Shown here one piece after another: positions 2,450-64,000 of a DNA stretch of 64,000 bases; the stretch's first letter is position 1, and the number at the start of each line of letters is the position of its first letter. The stretch spans positions 153,016,001 to 153,080,000 of the forward strand of contig OX597814.1 in NCBI GenBank assembly GCA_951406725.2, given 5' to 3'. The notes beneath the pieces are model-generated. The model ran no database searches and was not told the origin of the DNA. It saw nothing but the letters and a program-made list of their open reading frames with translations. The stretch comes from Octopus vulgaris. Taxonomy: Eukaryota. A program made the position numbers and the translations under genes.

Positions 2450-2547
2450 TCACTTGCTCAGGAGTGAACACTTAATCTTAAAATAAATATCATGTCACGT
2501 GCCTTTGTTATTTTTGTTATAATATCAGTATGTAAGAGGGATTGGCC

Positions 2548-2834
2548 GGCGATGCTTCGGTATATGTACCGGTGTACTTTCGGAAATACCGGATACATTT
2601 TTAAAAAAGTGTTTTTTTTAATATATATATGGGGGGGTAGGGGTTGGGGGGGGTAGGGGGGGGGGGAGAAAATGATTTCTATTATCTTCAGAAATGTAAA
2701 CAAAGTGACGTGTATGCATATACCGAAGCTTCGCCACATACCCTAACCCTAACCCTAATCCCCTATATATAAAAAAAAAAACCCACTTTTTTTAAATGTA
2801 TCCGGTACTTCTGGATACATACCGAAGCATCGCC
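2548..2834. mobile_element. Merlin-like MITE, family A, with telomeric repeats
   Basis: TIRs GGCGATGCTTCGGTAT...ATACCGAAGCATCGCC with extended imperfect inner symmetry; perfect 8-bp TSD GATTGGCC (2540-2547, 2835-2842); internal CCCTAACCCTAACCCTAA. Confidence 0.85.
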
Positions 2835-3375
2835 GATTGGCCGAATCATAATATCAGTATGTAAGAGTGGATTGGCCGAATCACCAGAAAATTAGAAAAA
2901 CGCCACGTGTTATTTTATCTGTTCTACATCTTTACGCTCTGAGTTCAAATCCTGCTGTGGTAAAATTTGCCTTCATCCTTCCGACGATGATAAAACAGAG
3001 TACCAGTCAAGTACCAAAGTCGATATAACCGACAGTTTCCTTTCCATTAAATTCCTGTCGTTTTGCCTATTATAAATATTGTTATTATATTAAAAATACA
3101 GTGGCTTTGTATCCAGTTAAAAGAAACCTGTACTACAGAGTTAAGAGTACAGAGGGAGTAGTACATTTTAATCGGGTTGTAAAGACCGGCATGTTAAAAA
3201 TGTTTGATGACACACATGACTGACTCCATTAGAAAATAACATTTACTAATTGATATTGCTTCGCCACAGGTCACGTATCTGAACTGAATAGGCTTATGAT
3301 CAAATGTTTTCAATTTTTGACCATCTCGTCTTATTTATCAGATGTATCGTATCTAGACTTACATTTTATGACATA

Positions 3376-3420
3376 CTAGCAGAGATACCCGGCGTTGCTC
3401 CCGTCATGGAATTGAAGAAT
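3376..3420 (-). mobile_element. Isolated Helitron 3' terminus
   Basis: actagcagagatacccggcgttgctcccg is the reverse complement of the hairpin+CTAG end seen in the other copies. Confidence 0.65.
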
Positions 3421-4040
3421 TAGACTGTTCTGTTATATTTTCTCTAACTCTTAATTGGAGATTAAGAATTTTAATGAGTGTTCTTTCCCTCTTTACACAC
3501 ACTAAAAAAAATTCTAATCATGACATATTTATCCCATACTACTTATCTTTATGCTCAGATTCCAAAATCCAAATCTTAGAAAACCTATTCAAAAGGCCTG
3601 AAATTTGTGGGGAGGGGACTAGTCGATTACATCGACCACAGTGTTTCACTGGTACTTACTTTATCGACCCCGAAAGGATGAAAGGCAAAGTCGATTTGAG
3701 GGTGATTTTGTTACAATTTCTTGCGGGTCGGTCAAGTTACTATGTTGATTAGATACCTCTTCGTTCCTTTTAGGTTTACAACATAAAATATTAGCTTCAT
3801 GTACTGATACACGGTTATAAATACGTACTGGCTGCGATGTAGTAGATTTTAAATACAGAGAAAGTAAGGGACTGTCTTGATTTGAATTCTGGACGATGTA
3901 TAATATAGTGTAGTTAGTGTTAATATCTTTAATGCTGTGAGCATTGAATACAAATGACTACATATCCAATAATTGCCTCCGTTTACCATAACGAAACAGT
4001 AGGAACAGCGAAACAGTAAAAAAAAAAAAACTAATCACTT

Positions 4041-4105
4041 TGGTTCTACCGAAATTCGAAATCAGATAGCTGAATTCAGTGTGCCAGCCATTACACCATA
4101 GAACG
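4041..4105 (-). pseudogene. tRNA-Gln pseudogene
   Basis: ggttctaccgaaattcgaaatcagatagctgaattcagtgtgccagccattacaccatagaac: multiple substitutions and a 7-nt deletion in the anticodon arm. Confidence 0.85.
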
Positions 4106-4304
4106 CCGCAGTTGACTGCTCTATTTTATCATCGAATAAAATATTGTCTGGTGTGTTTTTGAAGATGTTCGTTTGTCTTTCATCTTTCTTCGGACGATAA
4201 GTACTGGTGTTGATGTAATCGACTCTCGTATCCCTCCAGAGGAAACTAACGATGTGATGTATTCCCGAAATGCAATATAAATAGTTCAGACAGCAGAATA
4301 TGTA

Positions 4305-5405
4305 TTATGAATCATCATCATGATCTCTTTGCTGATGCAGCCTATCTTTGGGGTGTCACTCTCAACGCTTTTGCAATCAGCCGTCGCTACTGGGCTCTGT
4401 TCTCTTTCATGCGTCACAGTATTGTAATATATCCAGTCATTGATGTCAAACCAGGATTTTTTCTGTCTCTTCTCTTTCACCCTCTCTCAACAGCTCCTTG
4501 AAGAAAGGTTTTGGACAGGGAGTTGTGGCGTGATACGTGACCGACTATACAAGCTTTCTTCTTATGCAAGGAGTGATTTTTATCTGTAAGCGTATTTGTT
4601 AACTTGATGCGTTTTTGATGACTTACTGCCTGGCAAAACTGTTCGTTTTGTGCACTGTATATGGGATATGTAACAGCCTTCTGAAGCACTTGCGCTTCGT
4701 TGCCTGCATTAGTGTAAGAGTCCAGTTCTCACACTCAGAAGAATCGAAGTCACCTAAGACTTGTACACTCTTGGTCTTGTTGGAAAACTATTGGAATTGT
4801 TTTTTCATATGGTGTTCAGCTTTATCATGGCAGCAGAAGCTAAGAATCTTGTTATCTCGTTTCTGAGCTCTGCTGTCTTTTGTCAAAGTGAATCCTAAGT
4901 ATTTAAAAGTGTCCACTTCGTCAAATCTTTCTCCATTCAGTATAATGATGGTTGCTGTGTTTTGATTGTTATTATTAACCAGTTTGTTGCTCTTTTCTAG
5001 GTTAATCTCCATCCAGTATGCTCCTGATACTTTTTCCAGTCTGGTAGTGAGCTCCTGTAGTCCTACTTCACTACTATCCTAACAAGTCAATATCATCAGC
5101 AAAGCGCAGGTTGGAAATGGGCAGACCTCCAACGGAAACACAGGGGTGGAAGCCTTGAAGTGTTTTTTGCATGATGTTCTCTAGGAAGATGTTGAAAAGC
5201 TTTGGAGAGAGGAGACATCCTTGTTGAACACCCACTGTTGTCCTGAAGAATTCCTGAAGAATGCTGTTGTTCAGAACTCCACCGCTTGAGTTTTCATAGT
5301 GTTTAAGGTTGTTGTCGAAGTTGTAATTCTTCATCATCTGCCCCACCACATCGTGTCAAACACGATCAAAGGCCTTTTTGAAGTTGATGAAGTTGTGATA
5401 GAGGT
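4305..5405 (-). mobile_element. RTE-clade LINE, 5'-truncated and disrupted RT fragment
   Basis: GVQQGCLLSPKLFNIFLE and LRFADDIDLLG (5074-5349), FKYLG (4788-5012), GHVSRH...W C-terminal motif; (ATG)n-like tail near 4310. Confidence 0.85.
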
Positions 5406-62049: not shown

Positions 62050-62265
62050 AGGTGGCGAGCCAGAAGAATTGTTAACACGCCGGGCAAAATGTGTAGGGGT
62101 ATTTCGTTCGTCCTTACGTTCTGAGTTCAAATTCCACCGAAGTCGACTTTGACTTTCAACCTTTCAGGGTCGATAAAATAAGTACCAGTCAAGCACTGGG
62201 GTCAATATAATAGACTTACCCCCTTTCGCGTACTTGCTGGTCTTGTGCCAAAATTTGAAACTAAT
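62050..62265 (+). mobile_element. SINE family 1 monomer (diverged)
   Basis: aggtggcgagcc...ctgagttcaaattcc...gtcgataaaataagtacc; further decayed copies at ~1520-1720, 2870-3075, 3590-3700 and 52400-52510. Confidence 0.78.
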
Positions 62266-62299
62266 TTGAAACCAATATAAAGAAAGAAGAAAACAATTC

Positions 62300-62900
62300 T
62301 GTACGATGTTGAATGTAGCTAATCCAGGAGTGCTTGAATGAAGAACTGCTATAAGTCGATAGAGAATCGATGTGCTATGATATACATAGTGTTGCGCAGT
62401 CAGAAACATGACCGAAAAAACGGAGAGTTACAAGTGCAGAACAACTGCTTCTTCAGGAAATAAGGACGCTGTATGGAATGAAGTTGATATTGACCTAGCA
62501 CTCGCGAACACACTTATCAGCAAACTACTGTCGCTTCCTGTTAAGGCTATAGATTTGTCTTGACTGCAAATTAAAATGTGACTGTTTTAGTATCTATGTC
62601 CCTATGATGACAAACAAAATAAGAAGGATTTCTTATGATTCACTACAAACAACCGATAAACAATATGTCTTTGGCGATTTTAACGCAATAGTGACGAGAG
62701 ATTACCAAAAAGAGCCAGCTTTACACCAAACAGAGTCAACTAAAACAATCTCCTTCTTACAGTTACCTTAAAAGTGGTGTTGCGGCTTGCTTTGTTCATG
62801 GTCGAAGCAATGGAATCTGTCAGACTGCGTCCTTACCGCTAAGGACAGCGTAACAATGACGAAAAAAATCGTTAACTTAAGGTAAATGATTTCCCTTGAT
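62300..62900 (+). mobile_element. LINE APE-domain remnant
   Basis: FGDFNA motif at ~62670; otherwise decayed. Confidence 0.45.
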
Positions 62901-63144
62901 TGGGATCGTGGAGCAAATTTCGGATTATCACCCTTAAACTATAATTTGTTCCCATCAATTTTGGAACAATTGATTTAGTCCACTTGAGGGCGCTTCTAAT
63001 TATATAACTATTGTTTTGTTTCCACTACAATGACAGAACACTTGCTTTTTCCTCTGCGATTGTCATCTTTCATGGCACACCATGTTTGATCTATAACAGT
63101 TGCTCTGTATTTTGCGTGTGTGCACATTCAGTATACTAAGTTAC

Positions 63145-63390
63145 GAGCATATGGCGTAGTGGTTAAGAGCGCGGGCTACTAACCCCAAGATTCCGAGTTC
63201 AATTCCAGGCAGTGACCTGAATAATTATAATAATAATAACATCGAAAAATACTTTAGGAATGAGAACCCAGGTTCAAAATTTACCCAAGACACCTGATGA
63301 AGGATGGAGGGTATATCGGCCGAAACGTTGTGTTAACAACAAACAAGATGAGGGCAAATATCCGTCAAAATGTAAATAACGTAAATAATG
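63145..63390 (+). mobile_element. tRNA-headed SINE family 6 carrying a hammerhead motif
   Basis: A box TGGCGTAGTGG (63152-63162), B box GAGTTCAATTCC (63195-63206), (GTAAATAA)x2 tail, 11-bp TSD TACTAAGTTAC (63134-63144, 63391-63401). Confidence 0.88.
63289..63334 (+). ncRNA. Minimal type I hammerhead ribozyme motif (Penelope-type)
   Basis: Stem I GACAC/GTGTT; core CTGATGA(A); imperfect stem II GGATGG/TCGGCC; GAAA; palindromic AACGTT stem III. Confidence 0.72.
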
Positions 63391-63422
63391 TACTAAGTTA
63401 CTCTGTTCAAAGATGTTTTCTG

Positions 63423-64000
63423 GGATCTTTTCCTTTTGAACGGCACTTTGTAATATAATTTCTAGGTAACTAAAAAATTTTAAACTTCGTATACTGTTAG
63501 AATGTGTTTATAAAACATCATTTTCTCTTGGCTTTATTGAGAAAATTCTATAGGTTGTAAGATATTTCGTCTAGAAATTCTAGCATTTCGGCAATTTTAA
63601 CCAATTGCTGACGTCCATTTAGGTAAACAACATTCTGTGCATAATGAATATGTCCCTCGTTTAAGAAACAGATTGGGTTTATTTACATTTGTGAAGAAAA
63701 AGATACCCTTCCCCCACCCCTAACCCTAACCCTAACCCTAACTAACCCCAACTCTAACCCTAAATCTAAAATAGATTGAAATGCAATAGATCGATACTAG
63801 GGTTATAATTATGAGTGACAATTTCATACGGCACCGCTATGGAAAATGGGATTTTTTTCTAGCGGTGTCAAATGAAAATGTCACCCATAATTATGGCCCT
63901 AGTATCGATCTATTGCATTTCAATCTATTTTAGATTTAGGGTTAGAGTTAGGGTTAATTAGGGTTAGTTAGGATTAGTTAGGGTTAGGGTTAGGGTTAGG
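63423..64000. mobile_element. Merlin-like family B element in an inverted pair; runs off the window end
   Basis: First copy 63423-~63846 (CCCTAA strand), inverted second copy from ~63848 (TTAGGG strand). Confidence 0.85.

What the first reader, a model, noticed from the sequence alone, without database searches (positions are those of the whole stretch)
2540..64000. Three unrelated GG-terminal, 8-bp-TSD transposon families all carry telomeric TTAGGG repeats
Seen: family A (2548-2834, TSD GATTGGCC), family B (22232, 41708, 42892, 44272, 63423; TSDs GACAAATG and CGAATCTG exact, CTGTTTAG/A near-exact) and family C (44166-45399, TSD GAAGACAC) have different TIRs. All start with GG and contain internal (TTAGGG)n, and the multi-unit TTAGGG tracts I found in the window all lie inside these elements. 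Known: GG termini with 8-9 bp TSDs characterise the Merlin/IS1016 superfamily. Inference: telomeric repeats may be a functional cis-element of these MITEs, for example recruiting TRF-like telomere-binding proteins, forming G-quadruplexes or recording telomerase healing of excised ends. They could be the main source of interstitial telomeric sequence in this genome.
Basis: partly seen in the sequence, partly recalled or inferred. Interest (0 to 1): 0.75.

Follow-up and report, generated by a model that had tools for sequence, protein, structure and literature searches.

The report
Merlin transposons spread internal telomere repeats
Small gene-less jumping-DNA copies of the Merlin group carry most of the short telomere-type repeats sampled inside this animal's chromosomes, likely as passengers picked up a few times during DNA repair and then copied around.

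Summary
In detail: families A, B and C are real GG-ended elements with 8-bp TSDs, and every (TTAGGG)2+ run in the window lies inside one. They are not unrelated. A and B share the ~70-bp core beside the tract, and a fourth family (D) joins B-type arms to C's array. B's arm is the left end of Merlin transposase elements (9 of 20 loci fetched); C resembles the arms of another Merlin; A's link is weaker. The genome holds ~28,600 perfect runs of 2+ units. 26 of 30 unselected sites lay in GG-TIR Merlin-type elements; the A-D library covers 1.4% of randomly sampled DNA. Only 4 of the first 10 long arrays (6+ units) were in them. Tracts sit in at least five distinct sequence contexts, so there was no single capture. 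They are absent from transposase-bearing Merlins and from TIR-identical siblings, so they are not needed for mobility. Best reading: repair-derived cargo, swapped between families and amplified by transposition. Unchecked scan notes report the same pairing in other genomes.

The parts
2548..2834 (.). Family A MITE (near-palindromic, 287 bp), TIR GGCGATGCTTCGG, 8-bp TSD GATTGGCC; (CCCTAA)3 at 2741-2758; the second tract has decayed to a G-run at 2631-2666
   Evidence: genome copies
2634..2704 (-). ~70-bp core shared by A and B, directly beside the telomeric tract
   Evidence: 75% over 71 bp in the window; 75-84% with 15 other A copies; alignment
22232..22651 (-). Family B MITE, tract 22324-22351, no recognisable TSD
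41708..42141 (-). Family B MITE, tract 41810-41843, TSD 7 of 8, 5-bp duplicated terminus
42892..43297 (+). Family B MITE, tract 43184-43195, TSD GACAAATG
44166..45399 (+). Family C MITE, TSD GAAGACAC; degenerate TTAGGG array 44857-45170 with a 167-bp duplication; 41-bp tandem repeat 45244-45335
44272..44697 (+). Family B MITE nested in C, TSD CGAATCTG; bases 1-210 are homologous to the left end of Merlin transposase elements; tract 44569-44596
63423..64000 (.). Inverted dimer of B (ends at window-equivalent 64285, TSD GTTTTCTG), tracts at 63718-63763 and 63936-64000
   Evidence: opposed pairs ~160 bp apart recur in the genome

Best explanation
These are gene-less Merlin (IS1595-type) DNA transposons that carry most of the short internal TTAGGG tracts sampled in this genome, and the tracts are likely passengers rather than parts needed for jumping. 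Shown: GG TIRs with 8-9-bp TSDs; B's 210-bp arm is the left end of Merlin transposase elements; modules are shared among A, B, C and D; tracts occur in at least five sequence contexts (A/B core, C/D array, F, H, I); siblings without tracts exist; tract length varies between copies. Inferred: each context arose when a telomeric patch was put in at an internal break while a deletion or fold-back derivative formed (telomerase-type insertion or copying from another tract). Template switching then moved modules between families, slippage changed tract length, and Merlin transposase acting in trans multiplied the carriers, family B above all (at least 8,750 exact junction matches).
For: Merlin domain PF12762 over cut-off at 150 scored places. 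B-type left arm directly upstream of a DDE ORF in 9 of 20 loci, 71-83% identity. C aligns to inverted arms that flank a Merlin transposase, 67-69%. Family I TIR with a 9-bp TSD encloses a transposase. 10 of 10 clusters in 80 random 10-kb stretches lay in library elements covering 1.44%; other interspersed repeats (27%) held 0 of 10. 16 of 20 further unselected sites. In D and F the tract stands where the element leaves its transposase-bearing parent, in L241 at the arm-to-arm junction, and in family I it replaces part of a tract-free sister. Tract-free siblings: 4 of 7 complete B-TIR elements in the random sample had 0-1 unit; 7 of 9 family I had fewer than 2 units; 0 of 19 M2/GGTTAA elements had 2+ units. 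B tracts vary between copies, and one tract of window A has decayed. Repair-type insertion of telomeric repeats is documented in mammals (PMC7215372, passages), and pure tracts inserted into SINE-like repeats occur here too.
Against: The same hexamer recurs in five or more contexts of one superfamily, and unchecked scan notes report it in other genomes; passive capture alone does not explain why Merlin in particular. Tract-bearing B is the most frequent B-TIR family in the samples, which could reflect an advantage. No empty-versus-filled junction gives a clean telomerase signature, and MITEs are small, so any internal tract is near a junction. Polarity relative to the shared arm is opposite in D versus B and F. 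No complete B-type element with transposase, both TIRs and a TSD was found. No transposase partner with A's exact TIR was found among about 120 transposase loci read. A control against MITEs of other superfamilies failed.
Confidence: 0.6

Rival explanations
1. The TTAGGG tract (often a G-quadruplex-forming patch) gives a Merlin MITE an advantage, for example by binding telomere proteins that protect excised ends, aid synapsis or blunt silencing. Tract-bearing variants would then be selected repeatedly.
For: At least five separate contexts. All 7 window elements match a G4 pattern, and 8 of 17 G4 motifs in the random 800 kb lie in these elements. B is abundant. Similar pairings appear in unchecked notes on other genomes. 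Repbase Merlin-1_Aplcal from a mollusc has a period-6 repeat of 39.5 copies, unit not given (PMC8101967 S1 Table).
Against: Same-TIR siblings and transposase-bearing Merlins lack tracts. Tract number, purity, position and polarity vary. No binding or transposition data.
Confidence: 0.2
2. The tracts are microsatellites born by slippage from G-rich, TTTTAG-like subterminal motifs of Merlin and resemble telomeres without any input from telomerase or telomeric DNA.
For: Merlins are known to hold internal tandem repeats (PMC8101967, passages and S1 Table). D's tract starts at a GGTTTTAG motif present in the parent. C's array is degenerate with higher-order periods of 20, 26 and 167. Other tandem arrays occur in these Merlins.
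Against: It does not explain repeated arrival at exactly the telomere hexamer: 51,412 dimer matches against 104 for the reversed control. F and I tracts appear as blocks absent from sisters. One permutation class (ACCATC) was as common in the random sample, 12 against 11, so the hexamer is not unique in abundance.
Confidence: 0.13
3. One ancestral capture of telomeric or subtelomeric DNA was passed to all families by recombination and TIR swapping.
For: A/B share core and tract; C/D share array and right half; B/D/F share the arm. C, H and J tracts share a GGGTTACG border. A 47-bp satellite at the start of contig C6 holds a motif also seen beside A tracts.
Against: I saw no flank homology among the A/B, C/D, F, H and I contexts: the masked A-D library does not hit H or I sites, and masked flanks were not compared for all pairs. 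Polarity differs between families.
Confidence: 0.07

Closest known systems
Merlin superfamily (IS1016/IS1595-related) and its non-autonomous elements (Feschotte 2004 as summarised in Lopes et al. 2021, PMC8101967; passages and S1 Table part 1 read)
   Same: Terminal GG, 8-9-bp TSD, TIR length in the 24-462 bp range, DDE_Tnp_IS1595 partner, many co-existing families, internal tandem repeats; Merlin is reported as abundant in an octopus.
   Different: That paper's main text has no occurrence of 'telomer' and lists repeat periods without units. Here the repeat is the telomere hexamer, recurs in several families and accounts for most sampled short ITS sites.
Short interstitial telomeric sequences inserted at double-strand breaks (Santagostino et al. 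2020, PMC7215372; passages read)
   Same: Short TTAGGG tracts at internal sites, variable in unit number, at junctions with deletions or small duplications.
   Different: There each site is its own insertion event. Here a handful of events were likely multiplied thousands of times by transposition; only the long pure tracts in SINE-like repeats look like one-off insertions.
Proposal that mobile elements transpose telomeric repeats (Aksenova and Mirkin 2019, PMC6410037; passages read)
   Same: Names transposition by mobile elements as a possible origin of ITSs, which are often flanked by such elements.
   Different: In the passages read it is offered as a possibility for large heterochromatic ITSs without a named carrier. 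Here the carrier is named and counted.

Membership tests
Merlin superfamily | TIRs beginning 5'-GG | tested here: met
   A, B, C window copies and genome copies; some copies have a mutated terminal base
Merlin superfamily | 8- or 9-bp TSD | tested here: met
   Complete elements with a TSD of 0-1 mismatch: B-TIR 45 (43 of 8 bp, 2 of 9 bp), A-type TIR 19 (17 and 2), C 5 (the scan only tried 8 and 9 bp); 12 of 30 C-hit loci with up to 2 mismatches
Merlin superfamily (family B/D/F) | Ends shared with a DDE_Tnp_IS1595 transposase element | tested here: met
   Left TIR and 100-210 bp arm upstream of the ORF in 9 of 20 loci; ORF hit 53.7 bits; DDE blocks visible in the translation. Right end with TSD not found.
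Merlin superfamily (family C) | Ends shared with a DDE_Tnp_IS1595 transposase element | tested here: inconclusive
   Subterminal 200 bp are 67-69% like inverted arms around a Merlin transposase (L325, L126, L305), but the terminal TIR differs
Merlin superfamily (family A) | Ends shared with a DDE_Tnp_IS1595 transposase element | tested here: inconclusive
   First 12 TIR bases match at 11 of 12 a sister MITE whose arm sits at one end of two intact-ORF Merlin copies, with degenerate TIR and no TSD; shares a core with B; no exact partner found
Merlin superfamily | Mobilisation by the Merlin transposase | not testable with these tools
   needs a transposition assay
hAT / P / Mutator (other 8-9-bp TSD groups) | Ends linked to their own transposase types | not tested
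   Not searched; disfavoured for B by the Merlin linkage, and (recalled) hAT and P ends usually start with CA/TA; Mutator stays formally open for A
Telomerase-inserted short ITS | Filled versus empty site with in-register microhomology or telomerase-RNA fragments | tested here: inconclusive
   Family I and F versus tract-free sisters show block gain with short in-register seeds, but junctions are old; the host telomerase RNA is unknown

The most novel reading that the evidence does not exclude
Merlin transposons have a systematic, cross-phylum link to the telomere machinery: their breaks are patched with the host's telomere repeat or the repeat boosts their spread, so that Merlin MITEs set the genome-wide map of internal telomere-protein binding and G-quadruplex sites.
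Probability: 0.25. Interest if true: 0.8.

Novelty: new variant of a known kind. Interest (0 to 1): 0.5.

Why it matters
The origin of short interstitial telomeric sequences is usually put down to one-off repair events. In this 2.8-Gb genome most sampled short sites are copies made by one transposon superfamily. This gives a named, countable example of a route that the review I read offers only as a possibility. It supplies thousands of matched tract-bearing and tract-free elements for testing whether telomere proteins or G4 structure affect transposition. It also warns that telomere-motif counts and FISH signals in such genomes can reflect MITE load.

Tried and rejected
'Unrelated families': rejected. 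Single capture: disfavoured. Transposase-bearing Merlin with its own tract: one candidate (L309, array 50 bp after the stop) was not linked to the transposase in any other scored copy and looks like a separate insertion; another (L162, degenerate tract ~400 bp after the stop) was not resolved. Search for an exact A or C autonomous partner in about 120 transposase loci: none. Telomere check at 14 contig ends: 0 of 14 had arrays, so the telomere motif of this genome is taken from the literature on cephalopods (PMC13218726, passage), not shown. A generic scan for MITEs of other superfamilies was swamped by microsatellites. Consistent inward G-strand polarity: holds for A arms and D, but B and F are opposite relative to the shared arm. 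Paper searches listed no report of telomeric repeats in Merlin MITEs; most were judged from titles and abstract starts. Repbase, Dfam and subscription papers were not searchable. PMC6803351 ('merlini', a frog), PMC5953449 and PMC6800518 (passages) were not relevant.
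Full report
Setting. The window is G000:C1:153016001-153080000 of a 2.80-Gb genome in 227 contigs. About 30 chromosome-scale contigs and the recalled look of its SINE-like repeats suggest an octopus; this is inference and was not checked by a call. TTAGGG is the only experimentally determined cephalopod telomere motif according to a passage in PMC13218726. None of 14 contig ends read here carried an array.

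Observation. TSDs are exact for A, C and two B copies, 7 of 8 for one B copy and absent for one. The 63423 copy continues to 64285 as an ~860-bp inverted dimer with an exact TSD. All 15 perfect runs of two or more units in the window are inside these elements, against 0.005 dimers expected. Genome searches gave 1,227, 805 and 869 first-look candidates for B, A and C (lower bounds). Among all loci read, complete elements with an 8- or 9-bp TSD numbered 45 with a B-type TIR, 19 with an A-type TIR and 5 for C.

The families are related. A and B share about 70 bp directly beside the tract (75-84%). Many hits to C's right half belong to a family D, which has B's TIR, 280-bp arms 70-77% like B bases 1-220, and C's array and right half in the middle. 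A family F has the B arm, a CCCTAA tract and then sequence from the region upstream of the transposase. The set is a mosaic of swapped modules.

Superfamily. PF12762 (DDE_Tnp_IS1595) scored over cut-off at 150 of 150 scored places, from 476 candidates. One transposase family (L137; ~290 codons, three stops, DDE blocks visible) has B's TIR-bearing arm directly upstream in 9 of the 20 loci fetched, at 71-83% identity to window B. No copy with both ends and a TSD was found. C's inner 200 bp align at 67-69% to inverted arms around another Merlin transposase, whose outer TIR differs. A's TIR matches at 11 of 12 bases a tract-free sister MITE whose arm lies at one end of two Merlin copies, one with an intact 305-aa ORF of 76 bits; this link is weak. 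Lopes et al. (PMC8101967; passages; S1 Table part 1 of 2) define Merlin by GG TIRs of 24-462 bp and 8-9-bp TSDs, report 191 Merlin proteins in Octopus bimaculoides and internal tandem repeats in many families; their main text has no occurrence of 'telomer'.

Share of interstitial telomeric sites. The genome has 51,412 dimer and 22,831 trimer matches, hence 28,581 perfect runs of 2+ units; the reversed control gave 104 dimers. In 80 random 10-kb stretches, 10 of 10 clusters lay in or within 60 bp of the A-D library with tracts masked, which covered 1.44% of bases (6 B, 1 F, 2 D, 1 C, 0 A). Other interspersed repeats covered 27% and held none. Of 20 more sites, every third distinct site among the first 100 dimer matches on C1, 13 hit the library, 3 were by inspection in two further GG-TIR families (H and I) and 4 were unassigned. 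Together this is 26 of 30 (95% CI 69-96%), or 23 of 30 for the library alone (58-90%). The second sample covers only the first 20 Mb of one contig. A B-specific junction 20-mer alone has 8,750 exact matches. Long arrays differ: of the first 10 distinct loci with 6+ perfect units, 4 were in B-type elements and 6 were not, including pure tracts inserted into SINE-like repeats. The claim therefore holds by number of short sites, not for long arrays.

How many origins. Tracts sit in at least five contexts: the A/B core, the C/D array, F, H (85-117 bp, 3 of 3 with tracts) and I. Two more candidate families were seen and not worked up. Family I's TIR with a 9-bp TSD also encloses a Merlin transposase.

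Is the tract needed? Complete elements of two other Merlin groups, most with transposase, had no tract (0 of 19). Seven of 9 family I elements had fewer than 2 units, and 4 of 7 complete B-TIR elements in the random sample had 0-1 unit. The B-type transposase copies printed have no tract between arm and ORF. B tracts vary in length and purity, and one tract of window A has decayed to a G-run. So the tract is dispensable for mobility. An optional advantage is not excluded: all 7 window elements match a G4 pattern and 8 of 17 G4 motifs in the random sample are in these elements.

Mechanism. Tracts tend to stand at module joints: where D leaves its parent (at a GGTTTTAG seed), at the arm-to-arm junction of L241, at a deletion in F, and as a block missing from tract-free family I copies. 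In B the core and tract are flanked by a 10-bp direct repeat. This fits telomeric patches added at internal breaks while deletion or fold-back derivatives formed, like the repair-type insertions described in mammals (PMC7215372, passages), followed by template switching, slippage and trans-mobilisation. These steps are inferred. Junctions are old, polarity is not uniform, and the control against other MITE superfamilies failed. I put 0.6 on this reading, 0.2 on a selected cis-element, 0.13 on slippage alone and 0.07 on a single capture.

Prior knowledge. [quoted passage not shown] Eight library searches listed no paper on telomeric repeats in Merlin MITEs. Repbase, Dfam and subscription papers were out of reach and may hold such entries; Merlin-1_Aplcal has an unnamed period-6 repeat. 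Unchecked notes of this scan describe Merlin-type elements with telomeric cargo in other genomes; none for this genome matched 'TTAGGG'. Verdict: real, a new variant of a known kind, with a solid genome-scale count and an open mechanism; interest 0.5.

Noticed in passing
L001, L033, L053, L057, L064, L123, L139, L306; window 44272 in 44166: Merlin-type elements are often nested in one another (B in C, C in H, transposase Merlins in A and in C, F in A, A in I), which may point to a target preference or local hopping; not quantified.
   Followed up: no
L251 ~1500-1560; L283 ~1530-1750; L022 2525-2554: Pure (TTAGGG)n tracts inserted into single copies of SINE-like repeats, resembling one-off repair insertions.
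   Followed up: partly
L284 ~1340-1700: A segment with TTCGGC-type repeats and a long CCCTAA array, flanked by an 11-bp direct repeat inside another repeat; possibly a different TTAGGG-bearing mobile element.
   Followed up: no
L286 (G000:C5 ~210-214 kb) and L296 (start of C6): Subterminal satellites: TTAGGG arrays interrupted by a repeated spacer (about 73-bp period), and a 47-bp unit with a CCCTAA-containing motif also seen beside family A tracts.
   Followed up: no
L045 (G000:C29 ~24.192 Mb), L055, L137 5200-8400: Tandem arrays grown inside or beside Merlin-type elements: a ~1.7-kb A element with repeated internal units, an A copy with 29 telomeric units, and a >3-kb array of a ~91-bp unit downstream of a transposase.
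   Followed up: no
L126, L137, L098/L099: Several transposase copies carry inverted duplications of part of their own ORF, suggesting fold-back rearrangement is common in these Merlins.
   Followed up: no
window 2520-2880: The target of A lies in a ~35-bp tandem duplication, so a third copy of the TSD sequence follows downstream.
   Followed up: no
window 7952-8567, 58300-59230, 20369, 26524, 35319, 56518 and others: Abundant SINE-like repeat of ~170-240 bp, partly in tandem arrays; long (TGCA/TACA)n microsatellite at 49529-50740.
   Followed up: no
L007 ~300-470, L009 ~230-420, L309 3520-3710: Two more candidate families with degenerate telomeric arrays (one with GGTG-type inverted ends), not worked up.
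   Followed up: partly
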